DNA of 64,000 nt from an uncultured Mycoplasmatota bacterium (lineage in GTDB: Bacteria > Bacillota_I > Bacilli_A > RF39 > UBA660), in assembly GCA_900548695.1 (NCBI GenBank), contig URLC01000001.1:271354-335353 (forward strand), read 5' to 3'. Each line of letters starts with the position of its first letter. Position 1 is the stretch's first letter. Positions 16,434 to 56,432 of this stretch are shown here, piece by piece. A model generated the notes under the pieces. That model did not search any database. It was not told the DNA's origin and saw nothing but the letters and a program-made list of their open reading frames with translations. Made by a program: the position numbers and the translations under genes.

Positions 16434-16645
16434 ATATTGAAATATTGCTAGTAGTAGTAGTGTAGTTTCTTATTTCTAGAGAGTTTATGGTTGGTGAAAG
16501 TAAACAATAAGTGCTATATGAACTTGATTGGCTGATAGTATTTAGGGTTAGACCTTTATCTCAATAAAGCTGCGTAGTAGAACTACGAAGTAAGGTGGTA
16601 CCGCGAAGATTCGTCCTTATAGTTGTATAGGGGCGTTTTTTTTAT
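16434..16645 (+). promoter_or_regulatory. T-box riboswitch leader, leucine-specific (candidate specifier CUU at 16523-16525), ending in an intrinsic terminator
   Basis: AGAGAG stem-I element; GAACUUGA specifier context; conserved T-box AAGGTGGTACCGCG at 16593-16606; terminator hairpin TCGTCCTTATAGTTGTATAGGGGCG plus a T-tract. Confidence 0.85.
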
Positions 16646-16656
16646 AGGAGGATTTT

Positions 16657-17013
16657 ATGTTTCAGGAGTTTATTTTATTTACTATGTGTTTTTTTGTAGT
16701 GTTAGTGGTATATGAAATTTTTATTGTTAGGAAAACTAAAAAGGATAAGAACAAAAAAAAACCTATGGAAGTTAGATACTTAATTACTAGGTATCATTTA
16801 AATATGCAAAAAGTGGATTATCCACAATTGTTACAAATTGTTGCTTTAGTATCATCGTTTGATATTGCACTTATAGTTTCTTTAGCGATGATTGTTGATT
16901 CCTATTTATGGCAACTTCTTTTGGTTTTAATACTAGTTTTACCTGTTATTGTTGTTAGTTATCATTTTGTTGGGATATTTTATAGAAAGAGAGGAATGAC
17001 GAAGAATGTATAA
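16657..17013 (+). CDS. small polytopic membrane protein (118 aa), hypothetical; translationally coupled to leuS
   Basis: Strong RBS AGGAGG 7 nt upstream; 3 TM segments; stop overlaps the leuS start (ATGTATAA). Confidence 0.45.
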
Positions 17014-19819
17014 TTTTAGTAAAATAGAGGAAAAATGGAGAAAATATTGGGAAGATAATGATACTTTTCATACTGATGTTTGGGATTTTAGTAAGCCTAA
17101 GTTTTATGCTTTAGATATGTTTCCTTATCCTTCTGGAGTAGGACTACATGCAGGACATGCTGAAGGGTATACTGCTACTGATATTATTTCTCGAATGAAG
17201 AGAATGCAAGGATATAATGTATTGCATCCGATGGGCTATGATTCTTTTGGGTTACCAGCAGAACAGTATGCTGTAACTACTGGTAATCATCCTAATGGAT
17301 TTACACAAAAAAATATTGAAACTTTTAGTAATCAGTTAAAAGCTATTGGTTTTGATTATGATTGGTCTAAAACTTTACAAACAAGTGATCCTAAATTTTA
17401 TAAATGGACACAATGGATTTTTAAACAATTATATAATGATGGTTATGCTAAATATATTGATATGCCAGTTAACTGGTGTGAAGAACTTGGGACTGTATTA
17501 TCTAATGATGAAGTAATTGATGGTAAAAGTGAACGTGGTGGATTTCCTGTTGTTAGAAAGAATATGAAACAATGGGTTATTGATCAAGCTGCTTTTGCTG
17601 AAAAATTACTTGCTGGGCTTGATGAACTTGACTGGCCTGAGTCTACTAAGGAAATGCAAAGAAATTGGATTGGCAAATCCATTGGAGCGCAGGTTATTTT
17701 TAAAGTGGCTGGTACTTCAGAAGAATTTAAAGTTTTTACTACTCGTTGTGATACTTTATTTGGAGCTACTTATTGTGTTATGGCCCCAGAACATGAGCTT
17801 GTTGATAAAATTACAACAGCTTCACAGAAAGAAGCAGTAGATTCTTATAAGAGAGTATGTGCTACTAAAAGTGATTTAGAAAGAACAGAACTTAATAAAG
17901 AAAAAACGGGTGTTTTTACTGGTTGTTATGCGGTTAATCCAGTTAATAATAAAGAAATTCCAATCTATATTTCGGATTACGTTTTAGCAAGTTATGGTAC
18001 TGGTGCTATTATGGCGGTTCCAGCACATGATGATCGTGATTTTGAATTTGCAACTAAGTTTAATATTCCAATTATTCAAGTGTTAGAAGAAGTTACTGGT
18101 AAAAAACATGATGATGAGTCTAAAAAAGAGTCTATTGTGGCTATTGTATATGATAAAGAAGAAGATAAGTACTTAACCGTTAATTGGAAAGAAAATGGTG
18201 GTCGTCTATTTATTGGTGGAACTAGAAAAGAAAATGAGTCTGCGGTAGATTGTGCTATTCGTGAGGTTTTAGAAGAAACTGGGTATACTGATATCGAACT
18301 TGTATGTGAGGATTTTAAAATTAATCATCATTATTATGCTTATAATAAAGATAAATACTTTAATATTGAGGCTACTCCATTATTGTTTGCACTTAAGAGT
18401 AAGAAACAAGATTCTCAAAATTTAGAGGAAGATGAAAGTTTTACTGTTGAATGGGTAGATAAGTCTACTATTTTAAAAGAAATCAAGGATGAATTACATT
18501 TGAAATCGTTTGAATATGTTTTAAATCCACGTGCGATGTCAGGTGATGGTATTCATATTAATTCAGATTTTTTAAATGGTTTAAATAAAGAAGATGCTAT
18601 TGACAAAATGATAGATTGGCTTACTGAGCATAATTGTGGTTCTAAGCAAGTGAATTATCGCATGAGAGAGTGGATTTTTGCTAGACAAAGATATTGGGGA
18701 GAACCAATGCCAGTTGTTTATTTAGAAAATGGGGATATTCATATTTTAGATGATGATGAGTTACCACTTATTTTACCTGAGCTTGATGATTATAAAGGTC
18801 ATGGTGGTAAGGCTCCACTTGAAAATGCCAGTGATTGGAAACAATATAGTCATAATGGTTTGAAAGGGGTTCGAGAAACTTCTACTATGCCTGGTTCGGC
18901 TGGCTCATCTTGGTATTATTTAAGATATATTGATCCAGAAAATAATGACTTTTTTGCTAATCAAGAGCTATTGAAACACTGGATGCCAGTTGATTTATAT
19001 ATTGGAGGACCAGAGCATGTTGTTGGTCATTTGATGTATTCTAGAATTTGGAATAATTATTTATATGATAAGGGATTATCTCCTGTTAAAGAACCATTTA
19101 AAAAACTAGTTCATCAGGGAATGATTTTAGGGGCTAATGGTATTAAGATGGGTAAACGTTATCCTGAGTTTGCAATTGATCCACTTGATATTGTTCGTGA
19201 TTATGGAGCTGATACTTTAAGGCTTTATGAAATGTTTATGGGTCCACTTGAAGCTTCTAAACCTTGGAGTCAACAAGGAGTTGAAGGTGCTCAAAAATTT
19301 TTGGATAGAATTTATCGTTTATATGAATCAGAAAAACTTCAAGATACAGAAAATAAAAATCTTGAAAAGATTTATCATCAAACTGTTAAAAAGGTAACTG
19401 ATGATTTTGAAACACTTAATTTTAATACTGCAATTAGTCAAATGATGATATTTATCAATGCAGTTTATAAAGAAGAAATATTTCCTAAAGAATATGCTGA
19501 AGGATTTGTTAAATTGTTAAATCCTGTTGCTCCTCATATTTCTGAAGAGATTTGGGAAATGTTAGGTCATCATGGTACTATGGCTTATGAAGCTTGGCCT
19601 ACTTATGACGCATCTAAATTGGTTGAAAATACTAAAGAGATAGCAGTTCAGGTAAATGGTAAGGTTCGGGCTACTATAACTATCTCTGTTGATGAAGATG
19701 AGGAAATTATTAAAGAGAAAGCATTGGATGCTGAGAATGTTAAGCGTCATACGGATGGCAAAGAGATTATAAAAGTAATCGTTATAAAAGGTAAAATTGT
19801 TAATATCGTGGTTAAATAA
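17006..19819 (+). CDS. leuS: leucine--tRNA ligase carrying an in-frame Nudix hydrolase domain insertion (937 aa)
   Basis: HAGHAEGY (HIGH); CP1 editing motifs TTRCDTLFG and [15 protein letters not shown]; KMGKR in place of KMSKS; anticodon-binding and C-terminal domains present. Nudix box [24 protein letters not shown] at 18215-18286. Confidence 0.93.
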
Positions 19820-29968: not shown

Positions 29969-30044
29969 TTCTTTTCTTTTTTTTGGTACTTTTCAAAGAT
30001 TAAAATATATGATATATTAGATACATAATTTTTTATTGATAAGT

Positions 30045-30235
30045 GGATTAGTAATGATTATTTTTTATTTATAGAGATTTAGTGGTTGGTGAAAACTAAA
30101 ATGAGAATAGTTATGAAATACGACATTTGGAGAAAAATCGTTTATCGCGTTAAGATATTTGAGAGTATAGAGAAATCTATAAATTAAGGTGGTACCGCGA
30201 ACTATTCGTCCTTATTTGGGAGAATAGTTTTTTTG
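30045..30235 (+). promoter_or_regulatory. T-box riboswitch leader, tyrosine-specific (specifier UAC at 30119-30121), with an intrinsic terminator
   Basis: GAAAUACGA specifier context; conserved AAGGTGGTACCGCG at 30186-30199; terminator CTATTCGTCCTTATTTGGGAGAATAG plus T7. Confidence 0.85.
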
Positions 30236-30249
30236 TTGGAGGTGTTTAT

Positions 30250-30795
30250 ATGAATACTGAGTATGAAGTTAGAGTGTTAGGAATTGATGCTTCGAAAATT
30301 GAAAAGCAGTTGGAAGCTTTGGGAGCCGTCTTGCAATGGGATCATTTGCAAAAAAGATATGTTTATGATTTTATACCAAAAATAGAGGGTAAATGGATTA
30401 GATTACGAACTAATGGTGAGAAGACAACATTAACTATTAAAAATATTGTTTCTTCGGAGATAGATGGAACACAAGAATTAGAAATTGCAGTGGATGATTT
30501 TTTCAAGACTAATTTATTGCTTAATGAACTTGGTTTTGAAGCGAAAGGTTATCAAGAGAATAGGAGACGCCAATATATGTTGGATGGTGTTGAAATAGAT
30601 ATTGATTCTTGGCCTTTGATTCCTACTTATTTGGAAATTGAGGGTAAAAGCGAAGAGGCAGTATATCAAGTGTTAGATAAATTAAAAATTTCAAAAGATT
30701 CTGTTACTACTAGAGATGTAGAGGGAATTTATTTGGATTATGGTTATCAATTAGATAAAATATATAATTTAAGATTAGAGGAGGAAAGAAAATGA
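30250..30795 (+). CDS. CYTH-domain (triphosphate tunnel metalloenzyme / CyaB-like) protein
   Basis: N-terminal EYEVR (ExExK-type) motif, IRLRTNGEK, ELEIAV and YLEIEGKSEE motifs; 181 aa; stop overlaps the tyrS start (ATGA). Confidence 0.65.
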   Translation: MNTEYEVRVLGIDASKIEKQLEALGAVLQWDHLQKRYVYDFIPKIEGKWIRLRTNGEKTTLTIKNIVSSEIDGTQELEIAVDDFFKTNLLLNELGFEAKGYQENRRRQYMLDGVEIDIDSWPLIPTYLEIEGKSEEAVYQVLDKLKISKDSVTTRDVEGIYLDYGYQLDKIYNLRLEEERK

Positions 30796-32024
30796 CATTT
30801 TTTGAAGAGTTAAAGTGGAGAGGTTTAGTTAAAGATATTTCAAGTCCTGAACTTGAGAATAAATTAAATCAGGGAGGGTTAAAATTTTATATAGGTGCTG
30901 ATCCAACTGCTGAAAGTTTACATATTGGACAATTTCCTACCTTTTTAATGGTAGAGCGCTTGAAGAGAGCTGGACATCATCCATATATCTTAGTTGGTGG
31001 AGCAACTGGTAGAGTTGGTGATCCTCGTGGAACTGGGGAGCGAGAGAAAGCAGAAATTTCTGTAATTGAACATAATTATGGAAAAATGAAAGCTCAAATA
31101 AAAAAGTTGTTTGGAGAAGAAGTACAATTAGTTAACAACTATGATTGGTTTAAAGATATTAATTATATCGATTTTTTAAGAGATGTTGGAAAGTATATCA
31201 ATGTCAGTTATATGATTAATAAAGATTTAGTTAAACGTCAAATGGATATTGGTATTAGTTATGCAGAGTTTTCATATATGTTAATTCAAGGATATGATTT
31301 TAAAAAACTTCATGATAATTATGGAATTACTTTACAATTTGGCGGTTCTGATCAATGGGGTAATTTAACTACAGGCATTGAATTAATTAGAAAGCTTAAT
31401 AGTGAAGAAGTTTTTGCTTTCTCTATGCCACTAATTACTGATTCTACGGGTAAAAAACTAGGTAAAAGCTATGGTAATGCATTATGGCTAGACCCTGAGA
31501 AAACATCTAGTTATGAAATGTATCAGTATCTATTAAATTTAGAAGATATCATGATGGAAGAGTATTTAAAGAAGTTCACATTTTTGACTAAGGAAGAAAT
31601 AGCAGACATTATGAAGCAACAAAGTGCACAACCAGAAAAAAGAGTTGCTCAAAAAGCTTTGGCTAAAGAAGTGTTAGATTTTATTCATGGTGAAGGTGCT
31701 TATGAAAATGCTGTTAAAATAAGTGAAGCTTTGTTTAGTGGAAATATTAAAGATTTGACTGCCTCTCAAATTGAGGATGCATTTAAAGGAATTGAACCAT
31801 TTACAATTAAAGAAGAAGAAAATCTGGTTGACTTCTTAGTACATTTTCAAATTTGTTCTAGTAAGAGAGAGGCTAGAGAATTTATTGGTAATAATTCTAT
31901 TACATTAAATGGAGAAAAAATAACAGATTGTGCATTTTTAGTTACTAAAGATGTTGCTATAGAACAGAAATATGTAGTTGTTAGACGTGGAAAGAAAAAG
32001 TATTTTATTGGAACGTTTTGCTAG
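30792..32024 (+). CDS. tyrS: tyrosine--tRNA ligase
   Basis: HIGQ in the HIGH position, KKLGKS (KMSKS), C-terminal S4 domain; preceded by a tyrosine-specific T-box. Confidence 0.9.
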   Translation: MTFFEELKWRGLVKDISSPELENKLNQGGLKFYIGADPTAESLHIGQFPTFLMVERLKRAGHHPYILVGGATGRVGDPRGTGEREKAEISVIEHNYGKMKAQIKKLFGEEVQLVNNYDWFKDINYIDFLRDVGKYINVSYMINKDLVKRQMDIGISYAEFSYMLIQGYDFKKLHDNYGITLQFGGSDQWGNLTTGIELIRKLNSEEVFAFSMPLITDSTGKKLGKSYGNALWLDPEKTSSYEMYQYLLNLEDIMMEEYLKKFTFLTKEEIADIMKQQSAQPEKRVAQKALAKEVLDFIHGEGAYENAVKISEALFSGNIKDLTASQIEDAFKGIEPFTIKEEENLVDFLVHFQICSSKREAREFIGNNSITLNGEKITDCAFLVTKDVAIEQKYVVVRRGKKKYFIGTFC

Positions 32025-55735: not shown

Positions 55736-56077
55736 ATGTATCAGAATAAGATTACACTTATGCCACAAGATATTTTGGAGAAAGAATTTAAAATTGATAC
55801 TCGTGGATACCGTTTAAAAGAAGTAGACCAGTTTCTTGATATTATTATTGGTGATTATGAACAGTTTTTAAATATTATCAATAATTTAGAGAAAGAAAAA
55901 GCTGACTTGTTGGGTGAAATTATGAATTTGAAGCAAGAACTTCGCAATTCTAAAATGAGTATGGAAGTTGCTCGCAATAATGTTGAAGTTCCAGAAGTTA
56001 CAAATTTAGATATTTTAAGACGTCTTTCTCAACTTGAGAAGATGGTGTACAGTAGTAACAAGGATAATAACAATTAA
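55736..56077 (+). CDS. gpsB: cell-cycle protein GpsB (DivIVA-domain)
   Basis: MPQDILEKEFKIDTRGYRLKEVDQFLDIIIGDYE DivIVA N-domain; 113 aa; rnpB follows directly as in Bacillus. Confidence 0.8.
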   Translation: MYQNKITLMPQDILEKEFKIDTRGYRLKEVDQFLDIIIGDYEQFLNIINNLEKEKADLLGEIMNLKQELRNSKMSMEVARNNVEVPEVTNLDILRRLSQLEKMVYSSNKDNNN

Positions 56078-56079
56078 TA

Positions 56080-56432
56080 TATAGACAAACGCTGATATTT
56101 TTAAGATATTAGAGGAAAGTCCATGCTCGCACAGTCTGTGATGATTGTAGTGTTCGTGCCTAGGGAAAAAATAACCTAGGGTAGCATATGCTAACGGCGG
56201 AAGATAATCTAAGTCTTTGATATGATTTATTCCATAATGTGCCGCAGAGACGAGGCTTTAGGAAACTAAAGAGTGAAACGTGGTAAACCCCGCGAGCGAG
56301 AAACCCAAATTTGGTAGGGGAGCTCTAATGAAAGAATCGAATGGAGTTAGGGACCAAGTAATTGGTAGATAAATGTTTGTCGCCTGGCAACAGGAACGGA
56401 ACATGGCTTATTTATATTATTTGTTTATTATA
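56080..56432 (+). ncRNA. rnpB: RNase P RNA, type B (Bacillus-type)
   Basis: AGAGGAAAGTCCATGCTCGCACAG, GTAGTGTTCGTGCCTAG, GTGAAACGTGGTAAACCCCGCGAGCGAGAAACCCAAATTTGGTAGGGGA and ACATGGCTTA match conserved B. subtilis RNase P RNA blocks. P1 pairing is between 56081-56089 and 56422-56430. Confidence 0.85.

What the first reader, a model, noticed from the sequence alone, without database searches (positions are those of the whole stretch)
17006..19819. LeuRS carries a complete Nudix hydrolase domain inserted just after the CP1 editing domain
In the 937-aa LeuRS (bacterial LeuRS is usually about 800-860 aa), roughly 150 extra residues lie at nt ~18086-18540. They sit between the end of the editing domain (...[33 protein letters not shown]) and the point where the canonical sequence resumes (...INSDFLNGL...[17 protein letters not shown]). 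This segment contains a perfect Nudix box, G-x5-E-x7-REUxEExGU, as [24 protein letters not shown] (18215-18286). It is preceded by the typical Nudix beta-strand region [30 protein letters not shown]. The editing-domain motifs (TTRCDTLFG, conserved Asp) and catalytic motifs look intact, so this is a domain acquisition rather than a split or decayed gene. Nudix enzymes hydrolyse nucleoside-diphosphate-X compounds such as Ap4A, and class I/II synthetases produce Ap4A and aminoacyl-adenylates. A Nudix module placed at the editing-domain hinge could clear such products, adenylates or NAD-type RNA caps. I am not aware of a described LeuRS-Nudix fusion. Note the parallel at tyrS, which is translationally coupled to a CYTH triphosphatase; both synthetases in the window are linked to a polyphosphate/NDP-X hydrolase.
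Basis: partly seen in the sequence, partly recalled or inferred. Interest (0 to 1): 0.88.

Follow-up and report, generated by a model that had tools for sequence, protein, structure and literature searches.

The report
Nudix hydrolase nested inside LeuRS editing domain
This gut bacterium's leucyl-tRNA synthetase really does carry a complete, conserved Nudix pyrophosphatase domain inside its proofreading domain; the combination is widespread in small-genome microbes, seems never to have been described or studied, and its substrate is unknown.

Summary
ORF 17006-19819 is a 937-aa bacterial LeuRS with intact catalytic and editing motifs. Residues 362-509 (nt 18089-18532) form a confidently modelled Nudix domain with a canonical Nudix box.

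The domain lies inside CP1, at the tip of a late beta-hairpin where it replaces about 7 loop residues, not after CP1.

It is not an artefact. The same architecture occurs in about 75 of 80 fetched species genomes (298 genomic matches). It is under purifying selection (dN/dS 0.17), and its catalytic residues are conserved in at least 72 of 73 species.

New findings:
- CP1 plus Nudix (aa 221-548) behaves as a cassette shared by two LeuRS backbones that are only 46-49% identical.
- Close relatives carry zero or two Nudix domains at the same locus.
- In some genomes the Nudix is a separate "mini-CP1-Nudix" gene just upstream of an insert-less leuS.
- The Nudix belongs to a distinct family found mostly in LeuRS, and it is the norm in many Patescibacteria. 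A stand-alone form occurs in a DPANN archaeon.

I found no paper describing it. The substrate is unknown. My best guess, at low confidence, is a dinucleoside-polyphosphate or nucleotide house-cleaning hydrolase. I file it as a new variant of known kinds.

The parts
16441..16621 (+). T-box leader with a CUU (Leu) specifier that controls the operon
   Evidence: Rfam RF00230 scores 101.5 bits (gathering 93). The alignment shows GAA-CUU-G in the specifier position. The same leader is present in the split-form loci L081 and L083.
16657..17013 (+). 118-aa predicted membrane ORF whose stop overlaps the leuS start (ATGTATAA). It is the first gene of the operon.
   Evidence: It is conserved in the same position in L081, L083, L084/L085 and L086. 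It has no Pfam family.
17006..19819 (+). leuS: 937-aa bacterial-type leucyl-tRNA synthetase with a nested Nudix domain
   Evidence: ORF. TIGR00396 scores 991.5 bits. Pfam finds tRNA-synt_1, tRNA-synt_1_2, NUDIX and Anticodon_1. The AF2 model has mean pLDDT 82.5.
17666..18649 (+). CP1 editing domain plus Nudix (aa 221-548), a cassette whose history is separate from that of the synthetase body
   Evidence: The ratio of between-type to within-type identity jumps from about 0.45 to 0.95-0.99 over aa 221-548. Editing motifs TTRCDT (17738-17755), GTG and HDDRD (18026-18040) are intact and nearly invariant.
18089..18532 (+). Nudix hydrolase domain (aa 362-509) inserted at the tip of a CP1 beta-hairpin
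18218..18286 (+). Nudix box G-x5-E-x7-REUxEExGU ([23 protein letters not shown])
   Evidence: G405, E411, R419, E420, E423, E424 and G426 are each conserved in at least 72 of 73 species.
18326..18349 (+). Family-specific aromatic motif HHYYAYNK at the X-loop position, 14-21 residues after the Nudix box. It probably contacts the substrate's 'X' moiety.
   Evidence: Nearly invariant in the clade. Distant family members have [FY][FY]Ax[HN]K at the same place. The X-loop concept is from PMC5389931. The substrate-contact role is inferred.
18533..18649 (+). CP1 return strand and helix ([11 protein letters not shown]...WL) that completes the editing domain after the insert
   Evidence: It aligns to T. 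thermophilus LeuRS 375-413 and to insert-less LeuRS. It is also kept in the stand-alone mini-CP1-Nudix proteins.
19616..19816 (+). LeuRS C-terminal domain (aa 871-937), which shares the cassette's history between backbone types
   Evidence: The between/within identity ratio is 0.90-0.96 here, against about 0.4-0.7 in the neighbouring anticodon-binding region.

Best explanation
The gene encodes a working leucyl-tRNA synthetase. A catalytically competent Nudix pyrophosphohydrolase has been spliced into a surface beta-hairpin loop of its CP1 proofreading domain, so one polypeptide carries three active sites: aminoacylation, editing and Nudix.

CP1 and Nudix form a unit that evolves and moves together. 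The unit has been exchanged between two divergent LeuRS backbones. Its Nudix domain has been duplicated in some relatives, lost in one sister lineage, and in some genomes survives as a separate 'mini-CP1-Nudix' gene in the same leucine-T-box operon.

The Nudix belongs to a distinct family (Nudix box plus [FY][FY]Ax[HN]K) that is found mainly in or next to LeuRS in small-genome lineages: gut Bacilli MAGs, Patescibacteria and a DPANN archaeon.

Shown: the domain, its position, its conservation, the cassette behaviour, the alternative architectures and the distribution.

Inferred: the Nudix domain most likely hydrolyses a nucleoside-polyphosphate small molecule. Candidates are dinucleoside polyphosphates such as Ap4A/Ap4N, which synthetases make from the aminoacyl-adenylate, or aberrant NTPs. 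It would act as a house-cleaning enzyme that is co-expressed with LeuRS and physically tethered to it. The confidence given (0.55) is for the statement as a whole, including the inferred small-molecule hydrolase role. The structural and evolutionary part alone I put above 0.9, and the specific substrate class (ApnN or nucleotide house-cleaning) at about 0.35-0.4.
For: Domain and fold.

Not an artefact: about 75 of 80 species loci have an uninterrupted ORF of roughly 935-963 aa. There were 298 confirmed matches in the species-genome collection, more than 100 protein clusters carry the architecture, and a 100%-identical protein is seen on 18 contigs.

Selection: dN/dS is 0.165 for the Nudix, 0.114 for CP1 and 0.067 for the body. 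Nudix box residues are conserved in at least 72 of 73 species. LeuRS motifs are intact.

Cassette: between backbone types the body is 46-49% identical, while CP1 and Nudix are 64-71% identical, the same as within types. The boundaries are sharp at about aa 221 and 548.

Split form: a stand-alone mini-CP1-Nudix gene lies 15-17 nt upstream of an insert-less leuS that has a type-II body and a different CP1. Synteny and T-box are the same.

Zero-Nudix and two-Nudix forms occur at the same locus.

Family specificity: of 148 representatives classified among the hits to the Nudix core across 1.84 billion proteins, 93 have LeuRS flanks. A free Nudix of the family lies 2 nt upstream of a LeuRS-Nudix. 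119 of the 120 closest relatives of a distant LeuRS carry NUDIX, and the named ones are Patescibacteria.

Against: The best PDB sequence matches are RNA-decapping Nudix enzymes (Dcp2, g5R), though only weakly at E about 1e-4.

A pure house-cleaning passenger does not explain why the Nudix keeps a CP1 scaffold even when it is a separate gene.

The domain is dispensable in at least one sister lineage.

From my own knowledge, LeuRS is not a prominent Ap4A producer compared with LysRS or PheRS. Leucine starvation, which turns the T-box on, should lower Leu-AMP formation and hence Ap4A formation.

The orientation of the Nudix active site relative to the editing pocket could not be measured, because no model coordinates were available.
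Confidence: 0.55

Rival explanations
1. tRNA-end-directed enzyme. CP1, or the truncated mini-CP1, docks the acceptor end of tRNA(Leu). The attached Nudix then removes a pyrophosphate-type group from the tRNA. One candidate is a 3'-CCA pyrophosphate added by toxSAS (RelA-SpoT homologue) toxins. Another is a 5' triphosphate or an Np4A/NAD-type cap. The module would be a tRNA repair or decapping device.
For: The Nudix is persistently coupled to a CP1 scaffold in fused, split and duplicated forms. From established knowledge, CP1 is the module that binds the tRNA CCA end. The best PDB sequence matches are the RNA-acting Nudix enzymes Dcp2 and ASFV g5R. RppH and decapping effectors are among the structural neighbours. 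An IleRS-like protein carries Nudix plus a histidine phosphatase, which together could convert a 3'-diphosphate to 3'-OH. The stand-alone forms could act in trans.
Against: The domain is strongly acidic (mean net charge -10.5). The stand-alone mini-CP1 has lost most of the editing-pocket residues that hold A76: the T-rich region is degenerate, the GTG loop is deleted and the conserved Asp is not invariant. The Dcp2 similarity is weak and largely confined to the Nudix box. Nudix plus histidine phosphatase also occurs in mycobacterial MutT1, described as acting on 8-oxo-(d)GTP (PMC11784022, abstract). Co-inserted Ham1 and HAD domains point to small-molecule nucleotides.
Confidence: 0.15
2. Passenger fusion with no LeuRS-specific role. 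Small-genome organisms park a generic house-cleaning Nudix in a permissive loop of an essential, well-expressed protein. CP1 is simply a tolerant insertion host.
For: Carriers are small-genome lineages. Patescibacterial LeuRS carry several unrelated hydrolase domains at three sites. The Nudix has been lost without loss of leuS in a sister lineage. Nudix-only family members exist.
Against: The family is overwhelmingly tied to LeuRS rather than spread over many hosts: 93 of 148 representatives. The Nudix travels with CP1 as a cassette between backbones. It stays in the leuS operon, with a CP1 remnant, when it is separate. A free family member lies directly upstream of a leuS-Nudix in an unrelated lineage.
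Confidence: 0.2
3. Non-catalytic regulatory or structural domain. The Nudix fold binds a nucleotide ligand, as in NrtR-type or AraR-type Nudix regulators, and modulates editing or CP1 movement. Alternatively it only mediates protein contacts.
Against: All the metal-binding and catalytic box residues are conserved in at least 72 of 73 species and in the stand-alone forms. Non-catalytic Nudix domains usually lose them, which I state from my own knowledge. Only one cluster shows E424A.
Confidence: 0.08
4. Assembly or annotation artefact that joins a separate nudix ORF to leuS.
For: None found. The split-gene arrangement in L081 and L083 shows that separate genes exist in other genomes.
Against: The reading frame is continuous with no stops. 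An identical protein occurs on 18 independent contigs up to 365 kb. About 75 of 80 species genomes from many studies have the same uninterrupted ORF. The CP1 sequence resumes in frame after the insert. GC content is homogeneous across the junctions.
Confidence: 0.01

Closest known systems
Bacterial leucyl-tRNA synthetase (T. thermophilus 1H3N/2BYT, E. coli 4AQ7; NCBIfam TIGR00396)
   Same: It has the class Ia catalytic core with HIGH and KMSKS-type motifs. The CP1 editing domain has the T-rich region, the GTG loop and the conserved Asp. The anticodon-binding and C-terminal domains are present. It is regulated by a Leu T-box, as in many Bacillota.
   Different: A 148-aa Nudix domain is nested in the CP1 hairpin loop, between T. 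thermophilus residues 364 and 375. No solved LeuRS has anything there. The leucine-specific domain is missing.
Small monomeric Nudix pyrophosphohydrolases (E. faecalis 2AZW; T. thermophilus Ndx1 Ap6A hydrolase 1VC8; Ap4A hydrolases 1JKN, 1KT9, 3I7U; DIPP/DDP1; RppH)
   Different: Sequence identity is only 11-21%. It has its own downstream motif, HHYYAYNK or [FY][FY]Ax[HN]K. It is embedded in another domain rather than free-standing. No subfamily-specific motif is met, and the substrate is unknown.
Free-standing trans-editing factors (AlaX, ProX/YbaK, ThrRS-ed, DTD)
   Same: The stand-alone mini-CP1-Nudix proteins are, like these, detached homologues of a synthetase editing domain encoded as separate genes.
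   Different: The known factors derive from class II editing domains or from DTD. The 2024 review does not list a CP1-type factor among its free-standing editing-enzyme structures (PMC11295145). The mini-CP1 is truncated, lacks conserved editing residues, and carries a Nudix.
Synthetases with appended accessory enzyme domains (NCBIfam NF040702, IleRS with a GNAT domain; mycobacterial MutT1, Nudix plus histidine phosphatase)
   Same: In both cases an extra enzyme domain is fused to another protein: GNAT to IleRS, and a histidine phosphatase to a Nudix in MutT1. The Nudix plus His-phosphatase combination recurs in the IleRS-like protein P0189.
   Different: Here the extra domain is a nested insertion inside CP1, in LeuRS. 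No curated family model exists for it: no LeuRS-with-Nudix model appeared in the NCBIfam scan.

Membership tests
Bacterial LeuRS (TIGR00396 leuS_bact) | Whole-protein score above the curated cut-off | tested here: met
   991.5 bits against a cut-off of 548.4.
Bacterial LeuRS (TIGR00396 leuS_bact) | Class I signature motifs HIGH and KMSKS | tested here: met
   HAGH at aa 48-51 and KMGKR at aa 714-718. Both are nearly invariant in 70 relatives.
Bacterial LeuRS (TIGR00396 leuS_bact) | CP1 editing domain with the T-rich region, the GTG loop and the conserved Asp | tested here: met
   PF13603 scores 211.5 bits. TTRCDT is at 245-250, GTG at 331-333 and HDDRD at 341-345. D249 and D345 are invariant.
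Bacterial LeuRS (TIGR00396 leuS_bact) | Leucylation and editing activity | not testable with these tools
   Inferred only, from the intact motifs, from dN/dS of 0.07 for the body, and from this being the only leuS found at this T-box-controlled locus.
Nudix hydrolase superfamily (Pfam PF00293) | Profile score above the gathering threshold | tested here: met
   37.6 bits (whole protein) and 41.6 bits (insert alone) against 21.1.
Nudix hydrolase superfamily (Pfam PF00293) | Nudix box G-x5-E-x7-R-E-U-x-E-E-x-G-U | tested here: met
   [23 protein letters not shown] at aa 405-427. The key residues are conserved in at least 72 of 73 species.
Nudix hydrolase superfamily (Pfam PF00293) | Alpha/beta/alpha sandwich fold | tested here: met
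Nudix hydrolase superfamily (Pfam PF00293) | Metal-dependent pyrophosphohydrolase activity | not testable with these tools
   Needs an enzyme assay.
Ap(n)A hydrolase subfamily of Nudix enzymes | Conserved Tyr in the X-loop downstream of the Nudix box that stacks on adenine (Dunn 1999, as cited in PMC5389931) | tested here: inconclusive
   Y443 and Y444 lie 16-17 residues after the box and are nearly invariant. The model places them in a beta-strand, and register equivalence to human NUDT2 Y87 was not established.
Ap(n)A hydrolase subfamily of Nudix enzymes | Significant sequence match to characterised Ap4A hydrolases | tested here: not met
RNA pyrophosphohydrolase and decapping Nudix enzymes (RppH, YtkD, Dcp2) | Score above the family cut-offs | tested here: not met
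   YtkD TIGR02705 scores 24-28 bits against a cut-off of 154. RppH PRK00714 scores about 13 bits against 116-118. Dcp2 PDB matches have E about 1e-4 and are mostly confined to the Nudix box.
RNA pyrophosphohydrolase and decapping Nudix enzymes (RppH, YtkD, Dcp2) | Basic RNA-binding surface | tested here: not met
   Net charge is -11 in the window protein, with a clade mean of -10.5. This is a charge count only. The surface was not mapped.
Intein or mobile insertion element | Splice-junction residues (N-terminal C/S/T and C-terminal HN followed by C/S/T) | tested here: not met
   The insert begins EVTGKK and ends LNPR|AMSG, and no intein family appears in the Pfam scan.

The most novel reading that the evidence does not exclude
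CP1-Nudix is a dedicated tRNA acceptor-end repair or decapping module. CP1, or its truncated stand-alone version, recruits the CCA end. The Nudix removes pyrophosphate-type lesions or caps, for example toxin-installed 3'-pyrophosphate or Np4A/NAD 5' caps. That would give small-genome symbionts (gut Bacilli, Patescibacteria, DPANN archaea) a built-in defence of the tRNA pool. More broadly, LeuRS in these lineages would serve as an assembly platform for nucleotide or RNA sanitation enzymes.
Probability: 0.12. Interest if true: 0.9.

Novelty: new variant of a known kind. Interest (0 to 1): 0.74.

Why it matters
Aminoacyl-tRNA synthetases are among the most studied enzymes. Bacterial ones are usually thought of as architecturally conservative, and a 2026 survey reported that the LeuRS editing domain never hosts an insertion (PMC13114784). 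Three points make this finding matter.

1. Here the editing domain carries a second, conserved hydrolase. This holds in hundreds of gut species and in much of the Patescibacteria, and related stand-alone proteins reach a DPANN archaeon.

2. The natural series at one locus (zero, one or two Nudix domains, a split gene, and the cassette swapped between backbones) amounts to a ready-made genetic experiment on what the domain contributes.

3. If the Nudix clears Ap4N-type by-products or repairs tRNA ends, it would directly link translation fidelity machinery to nucleotide or alarmone homeostasis in uncultivated, host-dependent microbes. It would also define a new Nudix family with a testable substrate.

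The finding also flags that LeuRS from these lineages is systematically under-annotated.

Tried and rejected
- **Assembly artefact:** rejected on the comparative evidence.
- **UGA recoding behind the ~283-aa hits:** rejected. They are complete genes upstream of a full leuS, and the window uses TGG for Trp.
- **'Foreign leuS displaced the resident gene' (my first reading of the split loci):** revised. The neighbouring leuS has the type-II body common in the clade, but with a different CP1.
- **Simple deletion as the origin of the Nudix-less sister:** rejected. Its loop is the ancestral GGDISEAAYTG type.
- **Intein:** no junction motifs.
- **Metagenome scans with alignments of free-standing family members:** failed, because no stretch was conserved enough.
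- **AFDB50 fold search:** unavailable.
- **Model geometry:** coordinates are not exposed, so the position of the Nudix pocket relative to the editing site and the tRNA path could not be measured.
- **Specificity assignment from NCBIfam and PDB sequence searches:** only sub-threshold matches.
- **Literature:** None returned a paper on it. The Nudix clan review (PMC5389931) does not mention tRNA or synthetases.
- **Second Nudix in the window:** none found.
Full report
**1. Observation**

The window holds an uninterrupted ORF at 17006-19819 (+) of 937 aa. It is a bacterial leucyl-tRNA synthetase: TIGR00396 scores 991.5 bits against a cut-off of 548.4. Pfam finds the class I catalytic domain, the LeuRS editing domain PF13603 and the anticodon-binding domain. 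It also finds a NUDIX domain (PF00293) at aa 377-489, above its gathering threshold: 37.6 bits in the whole protein and 41.6 bits for the insert alone, against 21.1.

The Nudix box [23 protein letters not shown] lies at aa 405-427, nt 18218-18286. HAGH, TTRCDT, GTG, HDDRD and KMGKR are all present. GC content runs smoothly across the junctions.

**2. Where exactly the domain sits**

It is inside CP1.
- The Pfam CP1 model breaks at position 152 of 185.
- Alignment to T. thermophilus LeuRS stops at residue 364 and resumes at 375.
- The remaining CP1 strand and helix ([11 protein letters not shown]...WL) follow the insert.

A closely related LeuRS without the domain (P0127, 796 aa, 85% identical) has the 7-residue loop GGDISEA where the window protein has E362-R509. 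That short loop is the generic one, also seen in the solved CP1 domains of S. pneumoniae ([21 protein letters not shown]) and M. tuberculosis.

So a 148-aa domain is nested at the tip of a beta-hairpin of a domain that is itself an insertion in the Rossmann fold. The linkers are short and confidently modelled (pLDDT 84-93), which suggests a fixed orientation. I could not measure that orientation because model coordinates are not exposed.

**3. Not an artefact, and under selection**

A scan of one genome per species (185,579 species) gave 298 confirmed matches to the insert. The best 80 are all uncultured gut or rumen Bacilli, 'Tenericutes' or Mycoplasmatota MAGs, such as Ca. Onthousia, Ca. Faecimonas and Clostridium sp. 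CAG:451 and CAG:433. In about 75 of them the motif lies in an uninterrupted ORF of about 935-963 aa.

A 100%-identical protein is recorded on 18 contigs up to 365 kb, and more than 100 clusters share the architecture.

Across 73 species the insert is as conserved as the rest of the enzyme: majority-residue frequency is 0.76 against 0.65-0.80 for the other regions. G405, E411, R419, E420, E423, E424 and G426 are each conserved in at least 72 of 73. Median dN/dS over 65 pairs is 0.165 for the Nudix, 0.114 for CP1 and 0.067 for the body. Conservation of every metal-binding residue argues that catalysis is retained. That step is an inference.

**4. A family of architectures at one locus**

Relatives show five states.
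- **One Nudix**, as in the window.
- **No Nudix:** P0127, P0133 and P0137. Their locus has the same gene order as the window (GH31, a 300-aa ORF, T-box region, a ~120-aa membrane ORF, leuS, a 313-aa ORF, PHP), and no separate Nudix gene lies nearby.
- **Two tandem Nudix domains:** P0053, P0071 and P0076, about 1,103 aa. The first is a divergent copy followed by a duplicated DGIHINS strand.
- **A split form:** a 276-284-aa gene encodes a truncated, degenerate CP1, then the Nudix, then the CP1 return helix. It lies 15-17 nt upstream of an insert-less 806-aa leuS, behind the same T-box and the same small membrane ORF.
- **A free Nudix:** in an unrelated metagenomic contig, a free 163-aa Nudix of the same family lies 2 nt upstream of a LeuRS that also carries a Nudix.

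**5. CP1 plus Nudix is a cassette**

The 73 LeuRS-Nudix proteins fall into two backbone types. Between types, the N-terminal catalytic half, the second catalytic half and the C-terminal region are 49%, 47% and 46% identical. CP1, the Nudix and the CP1 return segment are 71%, 66.5% and 64% identical, the same as within each type.

A sliding window shows sharp boundaries at about aa 221 and 548. A second shared segment covers the C-terminal domain, aa 871-937.

The leuS of the split loci has the type-II body (81-84% identity, up to 93%) but a different, Nudix-less CP1 that is only about 50% identical to the cassette CP1. The module has therefore been exchanged between divergent synthetase bodies. 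Where the body carries another CP1, the Nudix is kept as a separate gene with a CP1 remnant.

The Nudix-less type-I proteins nest among Nudix-bearing ones in a neighbour-joining tree, yet they carry the ancestral loop. So the gain or loss there involved short-patch recombination, and its direction is unresolved.

**6. A LeuRS-associated Nudix family far beyond this clade**

An exhaustive HMMER search of 1.84 billion cluster representatives with the Nudix core found only 215 hits at E<=1e-3.
- Of the 148 listed representatives I classified, 93 have LeuRS-type flanks, 44 are Nudix-only and 11 have other flanks.
- Of the 49 hits of at least 600 aa, 47 are LeuRS that are only 35-55% identical to this clade. 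They carry one to three Nudix domains at the same site, at a second site at the entry to CP1, or at both.
- One hit is IleRS-like and carries both a Nudix and a histidine-phosphatase insertion.

The family shares a motif [FY][FY]Ax[HN]K about 14-17 residues after the Nudix box. This is the position of the specificity-determining X-loop.

Named members are Patescibacteria. Among the 120 closest relatives of one distant LeuRS, 119 carry NUDIX. Some reach 1,558 aa with additional Ham1/ITPase, HAD or serine-hydrolase domains.

Stand-alone mini-CP1-Nudix proteins of 270-312 aa form a diverse family of their own, only 21-34% identical to the gut ones. One comes from a complete Ca. Aenigmatarchaeota genome, where it is annotated only as 'NUDIX domain-containing protein'. 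Another sits 13 nt downstream of a CYTH gene.

**7. Mechanism**

The following are shown: a tri-functional polypeptide by sequence, leucine-T-box control with a CUU specifier, the cassette behaviour and the tight LeuRS linkage.

The substrate is inferred. I favour a small-molecule nucleoside polyphosphate, either Ap4N-type by-products of the adenylate intermediate or aberrant NTPs, for five reasons.
- The structural neighbours include Ap6A, Ap4A and diphosphoinositol hydrolases and M. tuberculosis Rv2985, deposited as a Nudix diadenosine polyphosphatase.
- The X-loop position is aromatic.
- The domain is acidic, with mean net charge -10.5.
- Other classic house-cleaning domains are co-inserted in Patescibacterial LeuRS.
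- Synthetases are the main Ap4N source, and Nudix enzymes are among the known Ap4A hydrolases (PMC13627108).

Several points weigh against it. No subfamily test is met. LeuRS is not a major Ap4A producer, which I state from my own knowledge. A generic cleaner would not need a CP1 scaffold.

The main rival is a tRNA-end-directed activity that uses CP1 as the acceptor-end binder. It fits the CP1 dependence and the weak Dcp2 and RppH resemblance. It is disfavoured by the acidity of the domain and by the decay of editing-pocket residues in the mini-CP1. A non-catalytic role is unlikely given the invariant box.

**8. Comparison with what is known, and novelty**

Both parts are members of well-known families, and the membership tests are met for LeuRS and for the Nudix superfamily. 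The combination matched no curated NCBIfam model. Ten full-text literature searches turned up no paper on it.

The Nudix clan review does not mention tRNA or synthetases. A 2024 review does not include a CP1-type protein among its free-standing editing enzymes. A 2026 survey states that the LeuRS editing domain never acts as an insertion host. Public records simply label these proteins leucine--tRNA ligase.

I therefore rate it a new variant of known kinds: real, widespread, conserved and uncharacterised. It is a clade feature, but not a documented or characterised one.

**9. The tyrS parallel**

The window does contain T-box (30027-30216), then CYTH (30250-30795), then tyrS (30792-32024, 4-nt overlap). 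A CYTH gene that is 28% identical lies directly upstream of a stand-alone mini-CP1-Nudix gene in another organism.

Noticed in passing
window 16657-17013 (+): A 118-aa predicted membrane ORF lies between the Leu T-box and leuS, and its stop codon overlaps the leuS start (ATGTATAA). It is conserved at this position in the one-Nudix, zero-Nudix, two-Nudix and split-form loci (L081, L083, L084/L085, L086). It matches no Pfam family.
   Followed up: partly
window 30027-32024 (+): A second T-box (30027-30216) is followed by a CYTH-domain gene (30250-30795) that overlaps tyrS (30792-32024) by 4 nt. A CYTH gene 28% identical to it lies 13 nt upstream of a stand-alone mini-CP1-Nudix gene in L091/L092.
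   Followed up: partly
window 19616-19816 (+), LeuRS aa 871-937: The LeuRS C-terminal domain shows the same 'shared between backbone types' signal as the CP1-Nudix cassette (between/within identity ratio 0.90-0.96). This suggests that two modules were co-inherited or co-transferred.
   Followed up: no
P0189 (metagenomic protein, 1345 aa): An IleRS-like synthetase carries a NUDIX domain (aa 270-396) and a histidine-phosphatase domain (aa 665-809) as insertions. So the theme is not limited to LeuRS.
   Followed up: no
P0352, P0357, P0358, P0399 (Patescibacteria LeuRS, 1367-1558 aa): These giant LeuRS proteins carry up to three Nudix domains plus Ham1/ITPase, HAD or serine/alpha-beta hydrolase domains, at the CP1 entry, at the late CP1 loop, and at a third site after CP1.
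   Followed up: partly
L089 5001-5864 (CP066684.1, Ca. Aenigmatarchaeota, 875-kb genome): A stand-alone mini-CP1-Nudix protein (QQG39722.1) with a bacterial-type CP1 remnant occurs in a DPANN archaeon. It is not next to leuS and is annotated only as a NUDIX domain-containing protein.
   Followed up: partly
P0044 and the L017 group (937-aa LeuRS-Nudix): One cluster has the Nudix box REIEEATGY, in which the second Glu of the EE pair is replaced by Ala. It may be a naturally inactivated copy. It is sister to the lineage that lacks the Nudix altogether.
   Followed up: no
window 19124-19190 (LeuRS aa 707-729): The window LeuRS has no counterpart of T. thermophilus LeuRS residues about 580-650, the leucine-specific domain. 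Without the Nudix, the enzyme body is therefore a compact 789 aa.
   Followed up: no
window 56076-56415 (+): A class B bacterial RNase P RNA is present (285.9 bits). This is consistent with a Bacillota or Mycoplasmatota-type organism and with normal 5' processing of tRNAs.
   Followed up: no
P0016 (244 aa): A short protein joins unrelated N- and C-terminal sequence (PF16916) to a clade-type Nudix core. It is probably a chimeric or mis-assembled short contig.
   Followed up: no
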